This document shows positions 6,530-48,413 of a DNA stretch of 64,000 nt, in pieces (positions within the stretch are counted from its first letter, which is position 1; every line of letters starts with the position of its first letter). This stretch comes from a virus, in the IMG/VR virus record IMGVR_UViG_3300045988_113306. One strand, given 5' to 3'. The notes under the pieces were generated by a model. It worked only from the letters and a program-made list of their open reading frames with translations. It did not search any database and was not told where the DNA came from. The translations under genes and the position numbers were made by a program.

Positions 6530-7921
6530 TCAGTTTCGTGTTATCTGCGCCGTCAGCCACTGTGCGATGACCCAGCTTGCCCCTTGGTCGGTGGAAGCCT
6601 CGACGACTATGCCCTTGGTCACGCCGACGGGGATGATGCCCTGTAGGTTCAGGTACACGGTGGCCGTCGCGTTTGGCCCAATGGTCACGAGGTTGGTGAG
6701 CGTAGTGACATTACCATTGGAGGTTATGCCCGCTTCCACGGTCTTGCCGTCGTAGGGGGTGTTGTAGGTAGGGTCGCCCGCTGTCTGCCTGAAATCGCCC
6801 ACGGCGTGTGCGCGTAGCATCATGCGCACGTAGGTGGCGTTGGCAAGAGTGCCTCGAGTGTGTACGGCCAAGTTGCGCGTTCCCGTATTTTTGATGGATG
6901 TCTTGATGCCGAGGTCGGCTGTGTAAGATGTCTTGACCGTCGTGAGGTCGAAGAAACTCGCCGTAGTGGCAGGAAATGTTACGGTGTATTGCAGCCCCGT
7001 GAACACGTAGGAGAAGAAGTTGGCGATTGTTATGTTGGCTTGGTGCTCGGTGTGCGTGCGGTCGTTCCACGGGGCGAGGTAGCCGAGGCCGGAGAAGTCG
7101 GCGTTTACGGCCTTGAAGTGGTCGCCCGATGCCGCCGCTCGGTGGCTCTCGCCCGTCGACGACAGCCCCATGACCCCGTAGATTGCGATTAGCTTCACCT
7201 CGCCGTTGTCGATGTCTACGGAGGGGAACTTGGCCTTGAACGCCGTCTTTAGTTCCGACATGGTAATCACGATGGACTGCCCGTCGAACTTTCCCATCGC
7301 CGACAGTTTCTTAGTGGATGCCGCCCAAAGGAACGGAGTGTCGGACGAGAAGCTGCTGCTGTCCTTATAGTAGAGCTCCACGACATAGACGAGGTTGGTT
7401 TCCGGCCAAAACTCATTGATGCCTATTTCGGTGTTTGCATCGGCTTGGATGTAGAAGCGCAGGGAGTTGGATGCAAACCCGTTAATGGTAATCTGCGACC
7501 CCTTGTTGCCGTCCATGCCCGCGAGAACGGGCTGCACGGCATTTTGGTTGTAGCCGTCGAAGTCGTCGAGGCGACCGTAGTCGGTAGTGCGCACCGTCAG
7601 ATAGGTGTAGTTTTTATATCCCGATGTCGCTCCCGCCGCCTTGACACCCATACTGGCGTTCTTCAGCATATTGGTTCCCGTCACTCGCGGGTACTCCATG
7701 CCCCAAGTGCCCTCGCCTGAATTGTGTTGAAAGGGCCGGGGCAGTGAGGCGTATGAGATGTTGCGCAGCGGCTTGGTTCTTGACCACTTGTTTATTGTCG
7801 ATGCTGATATTGCCGAATAGCTGTCGTAGTAGCCGTCGCTTTTGCGACCGACGCCGAGCGTTCCGCAGATGTCGGGTTCCACGCCTACGGGAGGCGTGAT
7901 TCTGCCGTTGGTGTTAGCCAT
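6530..7921 (-). CDS. tail fibre / receptor-binding protein paralogue 2
   Basis: Start trimmed to MANTNGRITPPVGVEPD, which aligns with MGHSNGKIFGPVSFEAD of 8153..9355. The two also share a DFDGY(D/N)(H/Q)NAV block. Confidence 0.6.
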   Translation of the reverse strand: MANTNGRITPPVGVEPDICGTLGVGRKSDGYYDSYSAISASTINKWSRTKPLRNISYASLPRPFQHNSGEGTWGMEYPRVTGTNMLKNASMGVKAAGATSGYKNYTYLTVRTTDYGRLDDFDGYNQNAVQPVLAGMDGNKGSQITINGFASNSLRFYIQADANTEIGINEFWPETNLVYVVELYYKDSSSFSSDTPFLWAASTKKLSAMGKFDGQSIVITMSELKTAFKAKFPSVDIDNGEVKLIAIYGVMGLSSTGESHRAAASGDHFKAVNADFSGLGYLAPWNDRTHTEHQANITIANFFSYVFTGLQYTVTFPATTASFFDLTTVKTSYTADLGIKTSIKNTGTRNLAVHTRGTLANATYVRMMLRAHAVGDFRQTAGDPTYNTPYDGKTVEAGITSNGNVTTLTNLVTIGPNATATVYLNLQGIIPVGVTKGIVVEASTDQGASWVIAQWLTAQITRN

Positions 7922-27853: not shown

Positions 27854-28340
27854 CTCTTATGATTTTCACGTTTGACTTGTCATAGTCGTAAATATCGGCA
27901 TCTTCGCCGTATATGTAGACATTCGCCTTGCCGTCGCCCTTGATGTAGCATTTGCAGTTAACCAAGTGCATCTCGCATATACGATTCTTGGGAATGTATA
28001 TAGTGCCGATAAAATCTATCGCTATCAATGCCGTCGTAGTGGCCCGTATCGCGGCAATGTCGTCCCCTTTGCCGTCCAAACAATACATCGCCGATGTGTA
28101 GCCGTCCATGTCGCGGACATACTTGCCGTTATTGAATGGAGCATACTCACGGCAGATATACTCGGCTGTAAGCCCCCATCCCTTGGCAATTGAACGGGCA
28201 ACCCAAGGCATCCCGTTTGCGTCAAGACAGATGTCCATGAACGCCTTTTTAGACTTCGCCTTATCCACCTTGTCGGTGTATTCTTGGCAAAGCCCTAAGC
28301 GTTTCGCTTTGGCGATGAATTCTTCAAATGTCTTGTCCAT
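27843..28340 (-). CDS. hypothetical protein
   Basis: 165-aa ORF directly behind a TATCTTTG promoter. Confidence 0.55.
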   Translation of the reverse strand: MDKTFEEFIAKAKRLGLCQEYTDKVDKAKSKKAFMDICLDANGMPWVARSIAKGWGLTAEYICREYAPFNNGKYVRDMDGYTSAMYCLDGKGDDIAAIRATTTALIAIDFIGTIYIPKNRICEMHLVNCKCYIKGDGKANVYIYGEDADIYDYDKSNVKIIRDEL

Positions 28341-40861: not shown

Positions 40862-41104
40862 TTAATTTCCATAGCCCTCAAACTCCAATGCAGCTTTACG
40901 GGCCTCGTTTAATTTATCGACTATTACGGACACTGAAGCATCCTTGGCTACCTCGGCGAAAGCATATCCTTGATGCGTCAAAAATACCGTCCCGTTTCGC
41001 TCAACCACCTTGAAATCCGACTTGATGTTGTTCATTTCGGTCTTTCGGGCCTCATTCTTGTGGTCATTCCACCATTGTACCAGCTTGCTCATTCTCTTGT
41101 TCAT
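40862..41104 (-). CDS. hypothetical protein
   Basis: Track ORF trimmed to an internal Met (MNKRMSKL) to reduce overlap; start uncertain. Confidence 0.4.
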   Translation of the reverse strand: MNKRMSKLVQWWNDHKNEARKTEMNNIKSDFKVVERNGTVFLTHQGYAFAEVAKDASVSVIVDKLNEARKAALEFEGYGN

Positions 41105-41264
41105 TTTCCTGTTCGTAAATTTCCTCGTATTCCACATCTTGAGCATCTGCCATGTCGCGGAGATGACGTTGTGGACTGTAATAGCTATCAATATAGCCAA
41201 ATCCCGTGTTTGCCACGGGGATTCCGTTTATATAAATCACGCTCATAATATCATATAGGTTCAT
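41064..41264 (-). CDS. hypothetical acidic small protein
   Basis: 66-aa ORF with an EQENEQENEQ tail; overlaps both neighbours. Confidence 0.35.
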   Translation of the reverse strand: MNLYDIMSVIYINGIPVANTGFGYIDSYYSPQRHLRDMADAQDVEYEEIYEQENEQENEQAGTMVE

Positions 41265-41583
41265 TTAACTGTTCGCACAATTCTTCCGCACACAACTCTG
41301 AATACTTCCAATCGGCATCCGAGAAATTTCGGATTATTACGTAATGGTCGGGATAGTGACGGAACTTCTTGATTACTAAACATATTCCTAATGGATTTAA
41401 TTTCTCCACCTCAAAATAACAGTCGTTCGGCGACACTGTTCGCCCTAACTCCTCACAGATGTGAAATTCATCTTCCATTGATTGAATTTCGTTGGTATAA
41501 TGAACATACTGCCACACGCACAATACTGCCAATGCGACTATCGGTATGCTCATAAGCACAATTACGTTTATATAGTCCTCCAT
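41251..41583 (-). CDS. hypothetical protein with N-terminal TM
   Basis: 110-aa ORF starting 2 nt after the dcm stop. Confidence 0.5.
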   Translation of the reverse strand: MEDYINVIVLMSIPIVALAVLCVWQYVHYTNEIQSMEDEFHICEELGRTVSPNDCYFEVEKLNPLGICLVIKKFRHYPDHYVIIRNFSDADWKYSELCAEELCEQLNEPI

Positions 41584-41584
41584 G

Positions 41585-43051
41585 TCAAAAAAATGTTAGT
41601 TGTTGTTCTTGATTTTCTTTATCAATGAATAATTTGTAAAAGATATGATATAATACATCGACCACGATAGAATTGCCTGCCAATGCGTAAATCGCCGTGT
41701 TTGATATTCCACAGGTACAAATTGCCTTAATGTCATCCTCTGAAACGGCCATTAAGCGCAAACACTCCGATGGCATGAGCTTGCGTATGCGCCACAACCA
41801 TCCGTCCTTGACGTAATACGCCCTGCCGCTTTCGGAGTCAACCAATACTTGGTCGTTCGCCATTTCATGCTCATCACATAAAATGGAGGAGGGTAAAAAT
41901 GTATTATCTACCAGCTCTTTCACATAATTGTTACGTTCAAACGCCGACGCCTTCACGCACGGTGCAATCTCCGATTCGCCGCCCTCAAAATAGCCATGAG
42001 GAAGCGACAGGATGACGGGCTCGAGAACTTTCGGCATCCTATTGCCGCCTGCACATGTGTCAAGGTTTGGAGAAATGCCGTTGATGTCGTATATTCGCCC
42101 AGACTGCGGATTGCCAGAGCCGGGATAGAGTTGCATTATCTCCCACAAGCATGGTTGTCCCGCTTTTGCATCATGCGCAGTCAACGTGGGCGCCACATCA
42201 AAATTAATGCTCCTATATCCCCTGAATTCCATTTTACGGCATAGGGGATGCAAACTTATGCCAATGATTGGCATCTGAACATACGGGTCTGTTTCACGTT
42301 GCCCGTATCGAGCCAAGATGGTACTCGCGATGCCGTCTTGTTTGCAGAATTGAGTCTTAAACCCACATCCCTCGGATTGTTTCTTGTCGCAATGTTCAAT
42401 AACTCGCGACAATTGCTTAGCTGTTAAATAATAACTTTCAGGCACGGTTGGTTCAAGATAATCTTTCAACCGTTTCTCCAATTTGAACGGTTTGGGGAAA
42501 TAATACTGGTAGGTGCAGTCAAGTATTGACACCATGAATAAACGTTCACGGTGCTGAGCTACGCCATAGTCACGGGCATCAAGAACTGAACAAAAATTTG
42601 TATATCCGTAGCTTTCCAGCTCGTGCTGCCATTTATTAAAAATTTTGACATGCTTGCGGTTCTTGACGGCCGCGACATTCTCAAATAGGATATATTTGGG
42701 CCTCTTGGCGAGAATCGCCTTACGACACTCCCACAACAATGACGAGCGAGTATTGCTGCCCTCCAAACCGCCTTTGCCTCTGCCAGCGACGGAAAAATCT
42801 TGGCAAGGCGACGACATCGTGAATATGTCAAAATCAGGCACAGCCACCCAATCTATGTGACGTATGTCGCCGAAGCACGGTACGGCTCCATGTACGGATT
42901 CATACGCCTTGATGGCCGTTGATTCTATTTCCGATGTGCCGACATAATCAAACTCAACCTTATTTGGGTAATTGGCAAACAAGCGTTTCAAAGCCATTGC
43001 TTGCGCACCAATCCCGCTAAAAGCCTCAAACACTCTTAGTTTCATCCCCAT
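41585..43051 (-). CDS. dcm: DNA (cytosine-5)-methyltransferase
   Basis: FSGIGAQ (motif I), PCQDFS (IV), ENV (VI), QHRERLF (VIII), AGNSIVV (X). Confidence 0.9.
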   Translation of the reverse strand: MGMKLRVFEAFSGIGAQAMALKRLFANYPNKVEFDYVGTSEIESTAIKAYESVHGAVPCFGDIRHIDWVAVPDFDIFTMSSPCQDFSVAGRGKGGLEGSNTRSSLLWECRKAILAKRPKYILFENVAAVKNRKHVKIFNKWQHELESYGYTNFCSVLDARDYGVAQHRERLFMVSILDCTYQYYFPKPFKLEKRLKDYLEPTVPESYYLTAKQLSRVIEHCDKKQSEGCGFKTQFCKQDGIASTILARYGQRETDPYVQMPIIGISLHPLCRKMEFRGYRSINFDVAPTLTAHDAKAGQPCLWEIMQLYPGSGNPQSGRIYDINGISPNLDTCAGGNRMPKVLEPVILSLPHGYFEGGESEIAPCVKASAFERNNYVKELVDNTFLPSSILCDEHEMANDQVLVDSESGRAYYVKDGWLWRIRKLMPSECLRLMAVSEDDIKAICTCGISNTAIYALAGNSIVVDVLYHIFYKLFIDKENQEQQLTFF

Positions 43052-43136
43052 AAATACAAATCGGTTAGAATGGCAACGAGAAACATCATCGAGCGATTAC
43101 GGTCGCCGAAAAGAAGCCAAAGGATGTAATCTTTAT

Positions 43137-43595
43137 TCATAGCTCACATGGATAATAAGTGAAACAATTCTGAAAACGCTCATGCACGAGGTCTATCACA
43201 TTTTCCTCCCAGCACGGCACAAAATTCACGATGGCAAAGCTGTCATGCTCTATGATGTAGTTGTTTAGGAACTCGGACGCCGAGCATTTGTAAGTGGTGC
43301 AATTGGGAGCGCAAAACATCTCGTCTGCAAGGATGTCTATTGCATGATAGGACTTAAAATCGACAAAGAAAAAAGACTGCGCGTTGTAGCCGCAACCGAA
43401 ATCATAAATAATAGTGTCCTTGGGAAGCATCTTTGAGAGATGCCAATAGTATTGTACAAAGCCCATGAAACCGCAGTTAATACTGGCTGAGGCATCGCCG
43501 GAGAAAACTTTGTCTATCTGCTCTTTAGGTATTATACCACATAGATAATGTGACAGCTCCTCATTGGTTGGGTTCAGGGGGTCGGAGAACTCCAT
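43137..43595 (-). CDS. hypothetical protein (weak SAM-MTase-like DFGCG motif)
   Basis: Start trimmed to MEFSDP. IIYDFGCGYNAQ resembles class I methyltransferase motif I (weak). Confidence 0.45.
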   Translation of the reverse strand: MEFSDPLNPTNEELSHYLCGIIPKEQIDKVFSGDASASINCGFMGFVQYYWHLSKMLPKDTIIYDFGCGYNAQSFFFVDFKSYHAIDILADEMFCAPNCTTYKCSASEFLNNYIIEHDSFAIVNFVPCWEENVIDLVHERFQNCFTYYPCEL

Positions 43596-43686
43596 AGCAA
43601 ACAAAATCCCCGAATGGGGCCGTTACACACCCAAACGAGGCTTTAGAAGGTTAAACTTGCGGTAACGGACGCAAATATAGTCTTAG

Positions 43687-43759
43687 TGGCGGGAGCAGGA
43701 ATCGAACCTGCGACCTCTGAGTTATGAGCACAGCGAGCTTCCGACTGCTCCATCCCGCG
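43687..43759 (-). tRNA. tRNA with CAU anticodon, initiator-like 5' end
   Basis: Reverse complement CGCGGGATGGAGCAGTCGGAAGCTCGCTGTGCTCATAACTCAGAGGTCGCAGGTTCGATTCCTGCTCCCGCCA folds as a cloverleaf. CTCATAA loop, GTTCGATTCC T-arm, C1:C72 mismatch, no encoded CCA. Confidence 0.85.
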
Positions 43760-43775
43760 ATGTTGTTTTGTACGG

Positions 43776-43806
43776 CAAAGTTAACAACTTTTTTCGTAAC
43801 GACAAA
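43776..43806 (-). promoter_or_regulatory. promoter TTTG-N19-TAACTTTG for the tRNA
   Basis: -7 box ends 16 nt upstream of tRNA position 1. Confidence 0.55.
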
Positions 43807-43838
43807 AAAATCCACGCTATTTTCAACAAACGGCGTGG
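43804..43838 (-). terminator. intrinsic terminator
   Basis: Minus strand CCACGC-N15-GCGTGG followed by ATTTTTTT. Confidence 0.55.
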
Positions 43839-43880
43839 AAAAATTACTTAAATAACCTAAAATTAATACCTATGGAAACA
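43804..43880 (-). ncRNA. candidate ~75-nt small RNA (promoter-to-terminator unit)
   Basis: Bounded by the TATCTTTG promoter at 43886-43918 and the terminator at 43804-43838. No ORF. Confidence 0.3.
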
Positions 43881-43885
43881 AAAAG

Positions 43886-43918
43886 CAAAGATATGAAAAA
43901 CGGACGACTTTCACAAGC
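43886..43918 (-). promoter_or_regulatory. promoter CTTG-N21-TATCTTTG
   Basis: Plus strand CAAAGATA 43886-43893 and CAAG 43915-43918. Confidence 0.45.
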
Positions 43919-44046
43919 CATCCGCATAATTAATCACTTAAATCCAATATTATGATGAAAGAATTGCTATTTAGCTTTGACATACTCCCACGGCTAAAGC
44001 GCGTGGGATTCTTGTGTGCAAACGCAGGATGCCGTATCAGATACGG
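43895..44046 (-). ncRNA. candidate TnpB omega-RNA / IS right-end region
   Basis: Region spanning the tnpB 3' end and downstream. Hairpins CCGTATC-T-GATACGG (44030-44046) and CCCACG-N9-CGTGGG (43991-44011). Boundaries are guesses. Confidence 0.3.
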
Positions 44047-45124
44047 TCTTACTCCCGCTCCACAATTCGGAGATGCCCCTCCGAAGTATATTCTCAGCCG
44101 CATTGAGGTCGCGGTCGTTTACCTTGCCGCATTCGGGACATACCCATTCGCGGTCGCTAAGTTTCAATCCTTTGTTCACATATCCACACTCGCAAGTTTT
44201 TGAGGACGGATAGAATCTATCTATCTTATGAACCGTCACGCCATACTTTCGTGCAATGTGTTCAAGTCTGCCGACAAATTCAGCATGAGCCAAATCCGAC
44301 ATCTTGCGTCCCCACATTCTCGTCATGCCGAGCAACGATAAATCTTCAATGAAGATATAATCATATTTGCGGCACAACTCATGTGCGAGCTTCCACTGAA
44401 AAAACTCGCGTTTGTGAGTGATGTTCTCGAACTCGCGGCACACATCCTTGCGTCTGCGCTGTCGGTTATTCGAGCCTTTCTTGCATTTGGATAGTGAGCT
44501 GGATTTGCGCCTAACGTTGTCAAGGTCGGATTTTAAGAACTGTGGATTCCTTACGGTCGTACCGTCCGATAAGGTCATATAGGTCTTTAAGCCGAAGTCA
44601 ATGCCTACGGATGCACCATTGTGTGTCTTTCCGTATGCTTTCGGGTCTGCGTCCGTTGTGATTATCAGATAGTATTCACCGAGTCGTGAACGCTTGATTG
44701 CGATTCGTTTAACCCTGCCCTCATAAGGCCGCGAATAAGAGAATTTGAAACGCTTCTTGATTGTATTCACCGTCAATGCGTTCCCGTTCAAAGAGAATCC
44801 TCCCTGCTTATAGACAATAGAACAGAAGTCAATCGCTTTTCTGAATTTAGGAGGCCGTTTTGCCAGCTTCTTAAAGAAACGTTGATATGATGTATCAAGG
44901 CGTTCAAGAATCTCTTGTGTCGTCTGTGAATGTAGCAGAGTGCGTTTTATTCTCTTTGCATAATGCTTCTGCATCGCATTCTTTGAGATAAACTTACCAA
45001 ACAGCGAATAATACCTCTTCTGCAATGCAAGGGAGTGATTCCATACAAAGGAAGCCTCTCGCAGCATAGCCGAGAGATGCTTATTCCGCTTGGAATTATA
45101 GAGCTTATATTTGTACGAAATCAT
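43994..45124 (-). CDS. tnpB: TnpB (IS200/IS605-family OrfB, RuvC-like RNA-guided nuclease)
   Basis: Start trimmed to MISYKYKLY. RuvC residues in VGIDFG, IFIEDL and DRDLNAAENI; zinc finger CECG..CPECG. No TnpA nearby. Confidence 0.9.
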   Translation of the reverse strand: MISYKYKLYNSKRNKHLSAMLREASFVWNHSLALQKRYYSLFGKFISKNAMQKHYAKRIKRTLLHSQTTQEILERLDTSYQRFFKKLAKRPPKFRKAIDFCSIVYKQGGFSLNGNALTVNTIKKRFKFSYSRPYEGRVKRIAIKRSRLGEYYLIITTDADPKAYGKTHNGASVGIDFGLKTYMTLSDGTTVRNPQFLKSDLDNVRRKSSSLSKCKKGSNNRQRRRKDVCREFENITHKREFFQWKLAHELCRKYDYIFIEDLSLLGMTRMWGRKMSDLAHAEFVGRLEHIARKYGVTVHKIDRFYPSSKTCECGYVNKGLKLSDREWVCPECGKVNDRDLNAAENILRRGISELWSGSKTVSDTASCVCTQESHAL

Positions 45125-45127
45125 ATA

Positions 45128-45159
45128 CAAAGATAGTGATTAATTAACAGATATGCAAA
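45128..45159 (-). promoter_or_regulatory. promoter TTTG-N20-TATCTTTG directly upstream of tnpB
   Basis: Plus strand CAAAGATA 45128-45135 and CAAA 45156-45159. The -7 box ends 3 nt before ATG 45124. Confidence 0.6.
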
Positions 45160-45208
45160 TTATTAACCAACCCAAAACGGACTGTCGATATGAAATATGC
45201 CATATACT

Positions 45209-45844
45209 TTACCATTCGTAGCCGTCGTATTCGGACGGCTTTTGTTGTTGTTCTGTTGTTTGTTCTTTATTTTCCTTGGGAGTGAACCATCCCTCTTCGT
45301 CGCGGATTTCCTTGGCCAAGCCTATCTGATGCTCGCCGTAGTTAGTCCGCACGATGACTTCATGGCTGTTGCCGAAAGGATCCAAGAACTCTGTCTTGCG
45401 GAAGCTGAACTCAACGTATTTACGGCCCGTCATCCTATCGGTCTTGACGTCCTCCGGCTGTATGCTGTCAAGAAACAGCTTACCGTCACAAAAAATCTGT
45501 GTCATATTGTTTGTGTAATCTGCTTTTGGCGCTTCGACCATCACGAACGCATGTCCGAGCTTGTTTGACAAGTCAAAGTAACCGAGCGACTTCGCCCTGT
45601 CCACATTTTTGTTGTTTCGGTAAACCAAGCCGAATTTATGCGTGCGCAATTGAGGGTTCGGAGGTATCTCATTCATTCGGAAGCGGATAAACCAAGAGCC
45701 ATTTGCGGTATGTCCAATCTGCGCGTCGTCGCATGGGATTACAAGGCACGTTTTCTCCACGCCGTTAACCATTTCTTGCTTCTCCATGCAAAACGGCAGC
45801 TTGGATATGAAAAACGTACACATGTAATCAGCCATACAAATCAA
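45209..45844 (-). CDS. hypothetical protein, possible ssDNA-binding protein (paralogue of 48415..48771)
   Basis: 211-aa ORF with ATGA overlap to the ATPase. Block KTCLVIPCDDAQI.. resembles KRAVIIPIDTADI.. of 48415..48771. Acidic/aromatic tail EYDGYEW. Confidence 0.45.
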   Translation of the reverse strand: MICMADYMCTFFISKLPFCMEKQEMVNGVEKTCLVIPCDDAQIGHTANGSWFIRFRMNEIPPNPQLRTHKFGLVYRNNKNVDRAKSLGYFDLSNKLGHAFVMVEAPKADYTNNMTQIFCDGKLFLDSIQPEDVKTDRMTGRKYVEFSFRKTEFLDPFGNSHEVIVRTNYGEHQIGLAKEIRDEEGWFTPKENKEQTTEQQQKPSEYDGYEW

Positions 45845-47793
45845 AGGATTGTCAGTTCGGGATAATGCTTGTCTGCCGACAAGGTGACTACCTGTCGTCC
45901 GTGGGTATCAGGAATCTCCGATGTGAAATGCTCAAAGTCATCAATGAACACCGGCACATTCACACCGTATCGCTTGCACAATGCGTTGCTGATGTCAATT
46001 CCTATTATAGTCTTGTTGGCATGGTTGGTGCTGCCTCGGTCTACGCTGTTTATCGTCAGGGTACAAGTGTCCACCAACGCACCAGACTTGGCGATTTCGA
46101 CCATCTCGACATGGGAATGTTCAAGGTACTCATTCGCACGGTTGCGGACGGTATCGGCCCATTCACGCTCGCGCTCAATAAGGTTGTTCAAAATGCCCTC
46201 CCATTTGGCCAACTCAACGCCTGTGTTGCGTTTGTTGTCCTCATAACTCTTGATGTCGCGCATACATTTGTCATGTGTGTCACGACGCACCACAATCTTG
46301 GTCAACGCCTCGATGTCCTGAACCAACTGTCGGCTTTCATCTTGCAACTTTGCGGAATTCACGGTGGGTACTTCGGTCAACGAAGCCTCCTTGTCCTCAA
46401 CCAACTTGAGTATGGACTTCGCTTCCTCTGTATTTTCAAAAGAAACGAAGTCCGCTCTTAATTTATTGATTTGCTCCGTGATTGCGGCCGTATCAATATA
46501 TGCGGGTATCGCGTTGTTTATCGCATGCTTCTCGGACTCCAACTTTGCGAGTCGGGACTTTTGTATTTCAAGGCGCTCCACGGTCTTTTTACCACGTTCC
46601 ACTATCGGAGCCCGCTGCTTGTCTATGTCCTCGTAGAACTTAGTGCGTAATTGGGCTATTTGGTCGGCGGGTAGTTCCTGTCCGCAGTTGGGGCAAACGG
46701 TGTCTGAGAACTCTCGGCTTTTCATCTCCATGTTTTGCTCACGCAGCTTGGTGACTTCTTGCTCCAAATACTCAATGTCCTCTCGGCACATCTTGATTTC
46801 CGCCTTGCGGTTCGCCACAGTCTGTTCATTGCTCTTGATTATGCGCTCGATTTCTGCATTGTTGTCCTCGGCCTTAGACAATTGGTACTCCAACAGCATA
46901 ACTGCATTGCGGAGTTTAGCATTGTAAGCGTCCTCCGCATCGTTATATTGGTTTTTTAACGCACGAATCTCGGCAAGCTCGTTGTTGCGCTTCTCCACAT
47001 AAGGTTTGTTGGCCTCCTCCAAGCCGAGGATTTCCTTGTTGATTTCCTCAATGCGGGCCTTCTTTTCGGCAATTTGGCGTTCTGCGTCATCAACTGGGCC
47101 TAAATCGGGCAGTTGGCGGTTGGTAGCCTTGATGTCCGCCTCTATTTCCGCAATCTGCTGCTTGAGCGGAGCAATCTGTTGACGCATATATTCCTTGGCC
47201 TTCTCACTGTCCTTATACTTCTCCAAGTATTGCAGGGCCGATGTATAGTCACCCTTAAACTCGCTTTCGTCTATGCTGCCGACGATTTCGGCAAAGTGCT
47301 TGCGCAAGTCACGCCAATCAAGCATCTGATAATAACGAATGTCAATGGCAAGTTTCAGCTTCTCCACATCCATGCCGAACACCTCGACGACCTTGTCGCG
47401 ATAAGTGGCGGCCGACACCTCCAAGTCGTCAACATAGAACTTATACTCGTCGGACTTGTCCTTGACATATTCCGAGCTACCGCGAGGACGAACCCACTTC
47501 GGCTTTGCCTGACGCTTGAACAGGTATTCAACACCGTCGCAGTCAACAGCCACCTCGGAAACCGCCCAATTGGCGTTCTCAGGAGAGAATGGGAGCGTGG
47601 AATCGAACAAGTCATAGTTCGTGCGATTCAGCTCGTCGACGCCTGTAAGGCACCATTTCACGGCCACGAACAAAGTGGTCTTTCCCGTTCCGTTGTAACC
47701 GGCCACATCCGTGCGAGCATCCTTGAAGTCAACCCGGAACGTATGACCACGGAAGTTTGTCAACTGGGCCGTCTTAATCTTTATCTCCCTCAT
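45841..47793 (-). CDS. Rad50/SbcC-like SMC-family ATPase with zinc hook
   Basis: Walker A GYNGTGKTT, long coiled coil with central CPNCGQ hook-like CxxC, Walker B VPVFIDDFE. Confidence 0.8.
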   Translation of the reverse strand: MREIKIKTAQLTNFRGHTFRVDFKDARTDVAGYNGTGKTTLFVAVKWCLTGVDELNRTNYDLFDSTLPFSPENANWAVSEVAVDCDGVEYLFKRQAKPKWVRPRGSSEYVKDKSDEYKFYVDDLEVSAATYRDKVVEVFGMDVEKLKLAIDIRYYQMLDWRDLRKHFAEIVGSIDESEFKGDYTSALQYLEKYKDSEKAKEYMRQQIAPLKQQIAEIEADIKATNRQLPDLGPVDDAERQIAEKKARIEEINKEILGLEEANKPYVEKRNNELAEIRALKNQYNDAEDAYNAKLRNAVMLLEYQLSKAEDNNAEIERIIKSNEQTVANRKAEIKMCREDIEYLEQEVTKLREQNMEMKSREFSDTVCPNCGQELPADQIAQLRTKFYEDIDKQRAPIVERGKKTVERLEIQKSRLAKLESEKHAINNAIPAYIDTAAITEQINKLRADFVSFENTEEAKSILKLVEDKEASLTEVPTVNSAKLQDESRQLVQDIEALTKIVVRRDTHDKCMRDIKSYEDNKRNTGVELAKWEGILNNLIEREREWADTVRNRANEYLEHSHVEMVEIAKSGALVDTCTLTINSVDRGSTNHANKTIIGIDISNALCKRYGVNVPVFIDDFEHFTSEIPDTHGRQVVTLSADKHYPELTIL

Positions 47794-47963
47794 TTCTTTG
47801 CAGCTTCGATAGATACTTTGCGATACTCCTTCAGCATCTTTTAAAGTTCAAGGGATGCCTTGCGGGCACGAGCGCCAGCGGCCTTGTTTCCGTTTACGTT
47901 AGCCTGCATTTCTTTTGAAAACACAATCATTAATGATTGGATGTCATTGTAAATCTTTTCCAT
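47790..47963 (-). pseudogene. histone H1/Hc1-like small DNA-binding protein with in-frame TAA
   Basis: MEKIYNDIQSLMIVFSKEMQANVNGNKAAGARARKASLEL*KMLKEYRKVSIEAAKK. The TAA at 47841-47843 is in frame with both halves. The final TGA overlaps the ATPase ATG. Confidence 0.5.
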
Positions 47964-47990
47964 TTCGTAGTGGTTTATAAGTTAATAATG

Positions 47991-48413
47991 TTAGTTTCCT
48001 GTTGAGCCATATCCGCCAGCGCCGCGTTCGGTTTCGGACAATTCATCCGATTCTACCAACGTGATTTGAGGGTATGGCATAATAATGAGTTGACCTATGC
48101 GGTCGCCGATATTGTAGATATTATGCTTACTTGATGTCGGATAAAATTTAAATGACACCTCGCCGCGATAGCCACTATCGATAACGCCGACGCAGTTTGA
48201 CAACGCTAAATCCTTTTTCGATATGGAGCTACGAGGGAATATCAAACCGACATATCCTTTCGGTATCTCAAATGCCAATCCAGTGCCATATACGAAATAT
48301 CCACGGTTGTCTATGTTCATGGATGTCGCCGTGAGGTCGAGGCCCGCATCGCCGTCCTTGGCATAGGAAGGGATTACAGCGTATGGATGCAGTTTCTTGA
48401 CTTTTACATCCAT
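47991..48413 (-). CDS. dut: dUTP pyrophosphatase
   Basis: DAGLDL, PRSS, GVIDSGYRGE, RIGQL and RGAGGYGSTG motifs. Confidence 0.9.
   Translation of the reverse strand: MDVKVKKLHPYAVIPSYAKDGDAGLDLTATSMNIDNRGYFVYGTGLAFEIPKGYVGLIFPRSSISKKDLALSNCVGVIDSGYRGEVSFKFYPTSSKHNIYNIGDRIGQLIIMPYPQITLVESDELSETERGAGGYGSTGN

What the first reader, a model, noticed from the sequence alone, without database searches (positions are those of the whole stretch)
43840..45165. Intact solo TnpB wired to the phage's own promoter class, next to a phage tRNA
The 376-aa TnpB keeps all RuvC catalytic residues (IDFG, IEDL, DRDLNAAENI) and the CxxC..CxxC zinc finger. No Y1 TnpA is present anywhere in the window. Its ATG lies 3 nt after a TTTG-N20-TATCTTTG promoter. 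That -7 octamer is identical to five others driving the leftward phage genes, which suggests integration into the phage programme rather than a passive IS. The 3' end and downstream region carry hairpins (44030-44046, 43991-44011) in the position where omega-RNAs of IS200/IS605 TnpB are encoded. A phage-retained RNA-guided nuclease could serve homing, inter-phage competition or host targeting.
Basis: partly seen in the sequence, partly recalled or inferred. Interest (0 to 1): 0.7.

Follow-up and report, generated by a model that had tools for sequence, protein, structure and literature searches.

The report
Stranded TnpB nuclease in a phage
An ~83-kb gut Bacteroidales phage carries the remnant of an IS608-like insertion sequence that has lost its left end and replaced a phage gene, but keeps an intact RNA-guided nuclease (TnpB) and a guide RNA that matches the uninterrupted version of that gene in sister phages.

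Summary
An intact 376-aa TnpB (window 43994-45124, minus strand) keeps the RuvC D-E-D residues. No TnpA is in the window. A Bacteroidota-type promoter (TTTG-N20-TATCTTTG) ends 3 nt before the ATG.

Eighty-seven related copies show a 117-nt omega-RNA scaffold (44093-43977), with 17 of 25 base pairs covarying. It ends sharply at ...GTATGTCAA.

Three sister-phage lineages, with neighbouring ATPases 94, 88 and 68% identical, lack tnpB and carry a DUF4494 gene in its place. The element-derived DNA is 43977-45175. In the two closest lineages the empty site reads CATTAC|AGCTAAATAGCAATTC. That is the IS608-type TTAC target, followed by the exact sequence that serves as the guide here.

The left-end hairpin present in many relatives is missing. 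A deletion at a CCGTT microhomology appears to have removed it along with 382 bp of DUF4494. The promoter lies inside the IS-derived DNA and travels with other copies, so it is not evidence of wiring into the phage programme. The closest TnpB relatives (93% aa) sit in complete IS605-type elements with TnpA.

Best reading: an immobilised IS605-family remnant whose only remaining selfish route is RNA-guided cleavage of, and homing into, sister phages. It is a new member of a known kind, of moderate interest.

The parts
43977..45175 (-). DNA derived from an IS605-family (IS608-like) element, 1199 bp. It replaces 382 bp of the phage DUF4494 gene.
   Evidence: Backbone homology to sister phage L084 (95%) runs over window 47891..45176 and resumes at 43976..43593. 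L087 and L089 give the same left breakpoint and L087 the same right one; in L089 the right flank is too diverged to place.
43994..45124 (-). tnpB coding sequence, 376 aa. RuvC D-E-D residues intact; zinc finger CxC...CxxC.
   Evidence: dN/dS is 0.085-0.087 against its 93%-identical relatives.
45128..45159 (-). IS-borne Bacteroidota-type promoter: -33 TTTG (45159-45156), 20-nt spacer, -7 TATCTTTG (45135-45128). The ATG follows 3 nt later, so the mRNA is probably leaderless (inference).
   Evidence: The segment is shared with L034 (89% over ~60 nt), L026/L068 and the L102 mini element.
43977..44093 (-). Omega-RNA scaffold, 117 nt, overlapping the last 98 nt of the coding sequence plus its stop codon, and the right end. 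Helices: 44085-44078/44073-44066; 44065-44061/44016-44012; 44058-44054/44028-44024; inner hairpin 44046-44032; terminal hairpin 44008-44004/43990-43986. It ends ...AGTATGTCAA, with TCAA 10 nt after the hairpin foot.
   Evidence: All relatives lose homology exactly at 43977. RNAalifold finds 25 pairs, 17 with compensatory changes. 97.5% of cells are paired against 37-48% when the partners are slid, and 0 of 500 shuffles reach the observed values. The covariance model scores 126.6 bits. The single-sequence fold has z = -2.98.
43961..43976 (-). Predicted 16-nt guide, AGCUAAAUAGCAAUUC. It is the phage DNA flanking the right end: the last 10 nt of the former DUF4494 ORF plus 6 nt.
   Evidence: Sister phages have TTAC followed by the same sequence: L084/L085 match 19 of 19, and L087/L088 have one mismatch at position 16. 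No other site in the window has 3 or fewer mismatches.
45176..45203 (-). First 28 nt of the DUF4494 gene (ATGGCATATTTCATATCGACAGTCCGTT), fused to the interior of the IS left end at a CCGTT microhomology. It now opens a 19-codon remnant ORF.
43900..43925 (-). Terminator-like hairpin followed by a T-tract, 51 nt downstream of the scaffold end. It is the backbone terminator of the former DUF4494 gene and the likely 3' end of the tnpB/omega-RNA primary transcript (inference).
   Evidence: The hairpin sequence also follows DUF4494 in L148 and lies within the 95.9%-identical backbone block shared with L084.

Best explanation
This is the stranded remnant of an IS608-like member of the IS200/IS605 family.

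Proposed history:
1. The element inserted 3' of a TTAC at the end of a phage DUF4494 gene.
2. A later deletion between two CCGTT pentamers removed the left-end hairpin, which TnpA needs, together with 382 bp of DUF4494.
3. What remains is a self-contained cassette: the IS's own Bacteroidota promoter, an intact tnpB, a 117-nt omega-RNA scaffold and the right-end junction.

Proposed mechanism (inferred):
1. The promoter gives a near-leaderless tnpB mRNA.
2. The omega-RNA is processed from the 3' part of that mRNA. Its guide is the first ~16 nt of phage DNA after ...GTCAA.
3. The TnpB-omega-RNA complex cannot cut its own genome, because TCAA rather than TTAC precedes the match there.
4. It can cut the DUF4494-bearing allele of sister phages at TTAC + AGCTAAATAGCAATTC during co-infection.
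5. The break either disables the competitor or is repaired from the tnpB-bearing genome. Repair would copy the cassette and the DUF4494 deletion into the sister phage.

In effect it would act as a free-standing RNA-guided homing endonuclease gene, with no transposition.

Shown here: the anatomy, both junctions, the empty alleles, the covarying RNA, the missing left end and the absence of TnpA. Inferred: expression, RNA processing, nuclease activity and homing.
For: - TnpB identity and intact catalytic residues.
- The right-end boundary is identical in all 60-plus related copies. The family has TTAC immediately 5' of the left end wherever the same element sits in different contexts: L036/L043/L052, L020/L023/L027 and L002/L003.
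- The geometry matches IS608: TTAC 19 nt 5' of the left hairpin, and TCAA 10 nt 3' of the right hairpin (PMC3201880).
- The two closest sister lineages show CATTAC|AGCTAAATAGCAATTC at the orthologous site, with an intact DUF4494 gene.
- The left-end hairpin (…CCCAC…GTGGGATGAAAG-CCCGTTTT) is present in L034, L026, the L008 group, L075, L040 and L102, but absent from the window. The pattern search finds fewer near-matches than chance.
- No TnpA in the window.
- Omega-RNA covariation.
- dN/dS of about 0.09.
- All 5-6 public contigs of this phage carry the identical cassette.
- TnpA-independent, TnpB-dependent spread between plasmid copies is reported, and homing into co-infecting phages has been proposed as theoretical (PMC13565253; PMC10055086).
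Against: - No expression or cleavage data exist.
- HpyTnpB of IS608, the classic TTAC element, was inactive in the Meers et al. assays (PMC10055086), so activity cannot be assumed.
- Any IS605 right-end flank matches its own empty site by construction, so the guide-target match is expected and is not itself evidence of selection.
- The low dN/dS mostly reflects evolution while the gene sat in mobile copies. The branch after immobilisation cannot be isolated.
- The cassette is seen in one near-clonal phage lineage only. No second lineage carries the same junctions, which spread by homing would predict.
- Homing would require resection across 382 bp of non-homologous DUF4494 sequence.
Confidence: 0.6

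Rival explanations
1. Inert wreck. The element was immobilised recently by a chance deletion, confers nothing, and is intact only because too little time has passed for decay. The guide-target match is merely the footprint of the original insertion.
For: - It is found in a single near-identical phage lineage.
- The same IS family is active and inserts at many sites in phage and Bacteroidales contigs.
- Decayed derivatives, namely orphan scaffolds and mini elements, are common.
- HpyTnpB was inactive in vitro.
Against: - Every functional part is intact: promoter, ORF, catalytic residues, all scaffold helices and the TCAA end.
- The window scaffold is the top hit of the covariance model. It was one of the model's 26 training sequences, so this is weak evidence.
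- The deletion spared the promoter.
- A phage pays for 1.2 kb of useless DNA under a packaging constraint (inference).
Confidence: 0.3
2. The TnpB has been domesticated into the phage's own regulatory programme for a phage function, such as targeting the host or regulating genes.
For: - The promoter octamer is identical to those upstream of several leftward phage genes.
- Another phage gene has its ATG 4 nt after the same box.
Against: - The promoter is IS-borne and shared with copies elsewhere.
- The guide matches only the local flank. Within the window no other site has 3 or fewer mismatches.
- The metagenome scan gave only chance hits.
- RuvC is intact, so this is not a TldR-type nuclease-dead regulator.
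- Close relatives do without the gene.
Confidence: 0.05
3. It is still a mobile, non-autonomous IS that can be moved in trans by a TnpA from the host or a co-resident element.
For: TnpA-bearing relatives exist whose TnpB is 93% identical. The right end is intact.
Against: - The left-end hairpin and the TTAC left cleavage site are deleted. The left junction lies inside the DUF4494 start.
- IS608-type TnpA needs the left hairpin and the cleavage site (PMC3201880).
Confidence: 0.03

Closest known systems
IS608 / IS605 of Helicobacter pylori (IS200/IS605 family, IS605 group)
   Same: - TTAC target immediately 5' of the left end.
- Right end finishing in TCAA, 10 nt after the subterminal hairpin.
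- In complete relatives, 19 nt between TTAC and the left hairpin.
- A Y1 TnpA plus TnpB in complete relatives, arranged divergently as in IS605.
- TnpB about 39% identical to those annotated in Helicobacter phage records.
   Different: The window copy has no TnpA, no left hairpin and no left cleavage site. It sits in a Bacteroidales phage and carries a Bacteroidota TTTG/TAnnTTTG promoter.
ISDra2 TnpB-omega-RNA (reRNA) and the Geobacillus ISGst TnpB homing system (Karvelis 2021; Meers 2023, PMC10055086)
   Same: - The protein fold family matches (E = 2e-35 to 8exa/8h1j).
- The D-E-D residues are conserved.
- The omega-RNA is encoded across the 3' end of tnpB and the right end.
- The guide is the flank of the right end, and the TAM is the TnpA target.
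   Different: The TAM is TTAC, not TTGAT or TTTAT. In those systems the nuclease restores an excised transposon on a sister chromosome.
Free-standing homing endonuclease genes of T-even phages (SegF, SegB, Mob; intronless homing / marker exclusion)
   Same: The gene is present or absent between closely related phages, sits between conserved genes, and targets the allele that lacks it. The predicted outcome is co-conversion or exclusion of the competitor's locus (PMC13565253).
   Different: Recognition would be by a 16-nt RNA guide plus a 4-nt TAM, not by protein-DNA contacts. Self and non-self are told apart by TTAC versus TCAA at the junction.
TldR (nuclease-dead TnpB-derived transcription factors; Wiegand 2024, 10.1101/2023.11.30.569447)
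   Same: A TnpB relative that has lost its transposon context but kept an omega-RNA.
   Different: TldRs have an inactivated RuvC domain and guides that match promoters elsewhere. Here RuvC is intact and the guide matches only the original insertion site.

Membership tests
TnpB (RNA-guided nuclease of IS200/IS605) | OrfB_IS605 RuvC domain with D-E-D residues, plus a zinc-ribbon TNB domain | tested here: met
   Pfam and NCBIfam matches. The alignment to ISDra2 TnpB puts GIDFG, IEDL and DRDLNAAENI opposite the equivalent ISDra2 stretches (residue numbers D191/E278/D361 from own knowledge). CxC...CxxC zinc finger.
TnpB (RNA-guided nuclease of IS200/IS605) | A structured omega-RNA encoded across the 3' end of the ORF and ending at the transposon right end, followed by a variable guide | tested here: met
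   Sharp loss of homology at 43977 in all relatives. 17 of 25 pairs covary; 97.5% paired against 37-48% in slid controls. The covariance model scores 126.6 bits.
TnpB (RNA-guided nuclease of IS200/IS605) | RNA-guided, TAM-dependent dsDNA cleavage | not testable with these tools
   This needs biochemistry or an interference assay.
Intact IS200/IS605-family insertion sequence (IS608-like) | Right end with a subterminal hairpin and a cleavage tetranucleotide (TCAA) about 10 nt 3' of its foot | tested here: met
   CCCACGCGCTTTAGCCGTGGG followed by AGTATGTCAA. IS608 geometry from PMC3201880.
Intact IS200/IS605-family insertion sequence (IS608-like) | Insertion 3' of the family's target tetranucleotide (TTAC) | tested here: met
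   The empty alleles in L084, L085, L087 and L088 read ...CATTAC|AGCTAAATAG. The family-wide left-end flanks end in TTAC.
Intact IS200/IS605-family insertion sequence (IS608-like) | Left end with a subterminal hairpin and an adjacent TTAC cleavage site | tested here: not met
   The hairpin is present in L034, L026, the L008 group, L075, L040 and L102, but the window has the DUF4494 start fused at CCGTT instead. No left-end motif occurs anywhere in the window.
Intact IS200/IS605-family insertion sequence (IS608-like) | A Y1 (HUH) TnpA transposase in the element | tested here: not met
   tblastn of the family's TnpAs against the window gives nothing better than E = 1.3. TnpA (Pfam Y1_Tnp, 1e-36 to 1e-40) is found by tblastn in 34 of the 80 loci then held, beside tnpB in nearly all of them, including L002-L004.
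TldR / nuclease-dead exapted TnpB | Loss of RuvC catalytic residues | tested here: not met
   All three catalytic residues are retained.
Type V CRISPR-Cas (Cas12) | An adjacent CRISPR array | tested here: not met
   There is no repeat array in 41000-48000. The NCBIfam Cas12 model match is far below its cut-off, 57 bits against 350.
Free-standing phage homing endonuclease gene (functional class) | Presence/absence polymorphism among close relatives, with the recognition site intact only in the allele that lacks the gene | tested here: met
   L084/L085 (95% nt) and L087/L088 (87% nt) lack tnpB and carry TTAC plus the target. The window has TCAA plus the target.
Free-standing phage homing endonuclease gene (functional class) | Biased inheritance or gene conversion in mixed infection | not testable with these tools
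   This needs cultured phage and host, or deep population data.

The most novel reading that the evidence does not exclude
A TnpB that has lost both its transposase and its left end persists in a lytic-type Bacteroidales phage purely as a free-standing RNA-guided homing endonuclease. It would cut the DUF4494-bearing allele of co-infecting sister phages at TTAC + guide match. It would then either exclude them or convert them, driving both itself and a gene deletion through the phage population. The orphan omega-RNA scaffolds seen in related phages, for example directly behind tRNA-Met in L148, could be extra guides used in trans by such nucleases.
Probability: 0.35. Interest if true: 0.7.

Novelty: new member of a known kind. 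Interest (0 to 1): 0.45.

Why it matters
TnpB is the ancestor of Cas12, and its natural role has so far been shown only as restoring an excised transposon within bacteria or plasmids. A 2026 review (PMC13565253) lists homing into co-infecting phages as a theoretical possibility.

This locus offers a natural test case. One phage genome has a TnpB-omega-RNA cassette that cannot transpose. Sister genomes 87-95% identical in DNA across the locus still carry the exact TAM plus target. If the cassette is active, it would show that a transposon nuclease can live on as an RNA-guided homing gene or competition weapon in phages. That would be a plausible intermediate between a transposon accessory gene and a domesticated defence or offence system.

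If it is inactive, it is an ordinary decaying IS copy.

Tried and rejected
- **GenBank phages.** megablast of the locus and of 24 kb around it found no relative of the phage. The only matches were a 125-nt hit to orphan omega-RNA copies in MT835674 and a short hit in Dulem virus 40, outside the locus.
- **IMG/VR.** Scans with the two neighbouring phage proteins found no relative. This phage lineage is absent from IMG/VR. Relatives were reached only through the protein search with the ATPase.
- **Exact look-ups.** Looking up the flanking proteins returned only the same phage, always with tnpB.
- **Target scans.** The guide/target pattern AGCTAAATAGCAATTNTTT gave 0 hits in IMG/VR. It gave 39 hits in JGI metagenomes, all chance matches in unrelated environmental contigs.
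- **Rfam.** No omega-RNA family matched at gathering or permissive thresholds. Sub-threshold hits were noise.
- **Internal promoter.** No TAnnTTTG box lies on the minus strand inside tnpB that could drive the omega-RNA separately. I therefore favour processing from the tnpB mRNA.
- **A diverged left hairpin.** The hairpin in the upstream gene's 3' end (45240-45220) was considered as a diverged left-end hairpin and rejected. It is coding backbone, conserved in relatives that lack the element, and wrongly spaced.
- **Same event in the L145 lineage.** The tnpB at the same neighbourhood in L145 was considered as the same event and rejected. It is only 32% identical, has its own intact left end and has different junctions.
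- **Paper not held.** The Barabas 2008 paper is not in the library. The IS608 geometry was taken from PMC3201880 instead.
Full report
**1. What is there**

The minus strand of window 43994-45124 encodes a 376-aa protein. It matches Pfam OrfB_IS605 and Cas12f1-like_TNB, and NCBIfam 'guided_TnpB' at 242 bits against a cut-off of 100.

Against solved structures it aligns over its whole length with ISDra2 TnpB (8exa/8h1j, E = 2e-35). GIDFG, IEDL and DRDLNAAENI sit opposite the ISDra2 stretches GVDVG, GTEHL and DRDENAALNI, which to my knowledge hold its D-E-D catalytic residues (D191, E278, D361).

The window belongs to a tailed phage. It encodes a large terminase, a primase-helicase, a PAPS reductase, a dUTPase, clamp-like proteins and an SMC-like ATPase. 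An exact protein look-up places it on an 82,769-bp ENA contig (ERZ1742687 NODE_85). All 5-6 public contigs with identical flanking proteins also carry the identical tnpB.

**2. The promoter**

TATCTTTG occurs 10 times in the window, all on the minus strand, against 2.56 expected. About five other copies lie upstream of leftward ORFs, and one has its ATG 4 nt downstream.

To my knowledge this is the general Bacteroidota TTTG/TAnnTTTG consensus. The important point is that the promoter lies in DNA that came with the element (sections 4 and 5). The same ~60-nt upstream segment accompanies copies in other sequence contexts: L034 (89%), L026/L068, and a mini element in L102. So it does not show wiring into the phage programme.

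**3. The omega-RNA**

An IMG/VR scan returned 79 loci encoding relatives (four at 93% aa identity, most others at 50-69%). A genome scan returned 14 more, all but one in Bacteroidales metagenome-assembled genomes; the exceptions are labelled Thermoclostridium and Chitinophagales.

In every relative, nucleotide homology to the window stops at the same base, 43977, after ...CCAAGAATC-hairpin-AGTATGTCAA. What follows is unrelated from locus to locus.

I aligned 26 non-redundant copies of the last ~120 nt (alignment A2).
- RNAalifold predicts 25 pairs, and 17 of them show compensatory double changes.
- 97.5% of cells are paired, against 37-48% when partners are slid by 1-3 columns. No shuffle out of 500 reaches the observed values.
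- The window sequence alone folds into the same helices, with z = -2.98.
- A covariance model built from A2 finds exactly one copy in the window, 43977-44093, at 126.6 bits.
- Rfam has no matching family.

The region 43840-43976 is not part of it, apart from the guide.

**4. The family and its target**

tblastn finds a Y1/HUH TnpA (Pfam Y1_Tnp, 1e-36 to 1e-40) in 34 of the 80 loci held at that point. In nearly all it lies just upstream of tnpB, usually on the opposite strand. These include L002-L004, whose TnpB is 93% identical to the window's.

Copies of one element in different contexts fix the left boundary. L036/L043/L052, L020/L023/L027 and L002/L003 all read ...TTAC| immediately before the shared left end. 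In the L020 group, 19 nt separate TTAC from the left hairpin. The right end finishes in TCAA, 10 nt after the hairpin foot.

This is the IS608 geometry: TTAC target, 19 nt on the left, TCAA 10 nt on the right (PMC3201880). The window has no TnpA (best tblastn E = 1.3).

**5. Empty sites in sister phages**

Homologues of the neighbouring 650-aa ATPase led to contigs of sister phages, with ATPase identities of 94%, 88%, 68% and 66%. All have the gene order dUTPase - Hc1 - ATPase - ~192-aa gene - DUF4494 (139-141 aa). All but the 68% lineage (L089) then have tRNA-Met. None has tnpB.

blastn gives clean breakpoints:
- Window 47891..45176 equals L084 5903..8615 (95%).
- Window 43976..43593 equals L084 8998..9386 (96%).

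So window 43977-45175 (1199 bp) replaces 382 bp of DUF4494.

At the right junction the relatives read ...GACTACATTAC|AGCTAAATAGCAATTC..., and the window reads ...GGGAGTATGTCAA|AGCTAAATAGCAATTC.... The element therefore entered 3' of a TTAC, 10 nt before the DUF4494 stop codon. The predicted guide (43976-43961) is identical to the empty allele over 19 of 19 nt in L084/L085. It has one mismatch, at position 16, in L087/L088. L089, the more distant lineage, has lost the site.

**6. The left end is gone**

Many relatives have a left hairpin just upstream of the promoter segment...GGGCGGGAATACCCAC...GTGGGATGAAAG-CCCGTTTT.... These include L034, L026, the L008 group, L075, L040, L058 and L102.

In the window the first 28 nt of DUF4494 (ATGGCATATTTCATATCGACAGTCCGTT, 45203-45176) run straight into ...TTGGGTTGGTTAATAATTTGC.... 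The sequence CCGTT is common to both partners. The simplest history is insertion at the TTAC site, followed by a microhomology-mediated deletion. That deletion would have removed ~50 nt of the left end (cleavage site and hairpin) plus DUF4494 nt 29-410.

No left-end motif exists elsewhere in the window. Without the hairpin, the TTAC cleavage site and a TnpA, the segment cannot transpose (IS608 requirements).

**7. How it most likely works**

The following steps are inferred:
- Transcription starts at the IS-borne promoter and gives a leaderless or near-leaderless tnpB mRNA.
- No internal TAnnTTTG box precedes the scaffold, so the omega-RNA is probably cut out of the mRNA 3' region. TnpB processing its own mRNA has been reported for ISDra2 (my own knowledge).
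- The primary transcript can end at the backbone terminator, 43925-43900.
- The complex would need a 5'-TTAC TAM. The phage's own junction has TCAA, so it is immune. Sister phages that still carry DUF4494 present TTAC plus a perfect 16-19-nt match.
- Cleavage during co-infection would either damage the competitor or be repaired from the tnpB-bearing genome. Repair would copy the cassette and delete DUF4494.

A 2026 review calls this 'transposon non-restorative homing' and treats it as theoretical for phages (PMC13565253). Experimental support so far comes from plasmids (Meers et al., PMC10055086).

Evidence consistent with function: every part is intact, and dN/dS is 0.085-0.087 against the 93% relatives.

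Caveats:
- The guide-target match is automatic for any IS605 insertion.
- The dN/dS mostly predates immobilisation.
- HpyTnpB of IS608 was inactive in one study.
- The cassette is seen in one phage lineage only.

**8. Verdict**

The promoter argument fails.

It is not a passive mobile IS either. It is a stranded TnpB-omega-RNA cassette whose only conceivable selfish route is RNA-guided homing or competition between phages.

It is a new member of a known kind, the IS200/IS605 TnpB family in its IS608-like TTAC subgroup. It fails the membership test for an intact IS because the left end and TnpA are absent. Interest is moderate, because natural 'occupied' and 'empty' phage alleles make the homing idea directly testable.

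Noticed in passing
L148 7219-7416 (sister phage, ATPase 66% identical): An orphan omega-RNA scaffold (covariance model 124 bits, 7294-7416) with no tnpB sits directly behind tRNA-Met, after ...AAGATTAC, and ends GTATGTCAA|AAATAGCGTCCG. The window has the empty version of that site, just 3' of its tRNA-Met (about 43685-43665, minus strand). It could be a guide expressed from the tRNA transcript and used in trans by a TnpB.
   Followed up: partly
L001 (MT835674.1) 1036-1152 and 2182-2298; L102 15-131 and 977-1153: These are tnpB-less copies of the last ~117-130 nt (the scaffold), 91-97% identical to the window's. One L001 copy lies at the same site, with the same guide, as the full tnpB in L005. 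L102 977-1153 is a true mini element: the left hairpin and promoter fused directly to the scaffold and right end.
   Followed up: partly
L145 6880-8260 (also L146, L147); phage lineage with ATPase 60% identical, 12 contigs, one labelled pig gut: A different IS605-family tnpB (400 aa, 32% identical to the window's), with what looks like an intact left hairpin, occupies the same gene neighbourhood instead of DUF4494. This is an independent insertion, so the region is a recurrent landing site.
   Followed up: partly
window 43893-43800 (minus strand): A second TATCTTTG -7 box overlaps the T-tract of the terminator at 43925-43900. About 60 nt further on comes another hairpin plus a run of seven T (CCACGCCGTTTGTTGAAAATAGCGTGGATTTTTTT). 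This is a candidate small transcript between the tnpB/DUF4494 slot and tRNA-Met. A similar arrangement is visible in L148, and the region lies within the conserved backbone block shared with L084. Rfam gives only sub-threshold hits (FopS 21.6 bits against a gathering score of 56).
   Followed up: partly
window 28352-28338 (minus strand): A phage gene (165 aa, ATG at 28340) has its start codon 4 nt after a TTTG-N19-TATCTTTG promoter. The near-leaderless arrangement seen at tnpB is therefore also used by genuine phage genes.
   Followed up: no
L020 3527-3937 (and the L022-L029, L053, L066, L072, L078 group): The TnpA of this subgroup reads MPDHVRIF where relatives have MPDHVHLF. Its HUH motif is H-V-R, so the transposase may be impaired, yet the element is present in many contigs.
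   Followed up: no
window 41585-43051 and 43137-43595 (minus strand) compared with L084, L087, L089: The region downstream of the tRNA is mosaic among sister phages. The 152-aa gene and the DNA methylase are present, absent or replaced: L084 has a 599-aa methylase, L087 has none, and L089 has the 152-aa gene. This suggests frequent module exchange around this locus.
   Followed up: no
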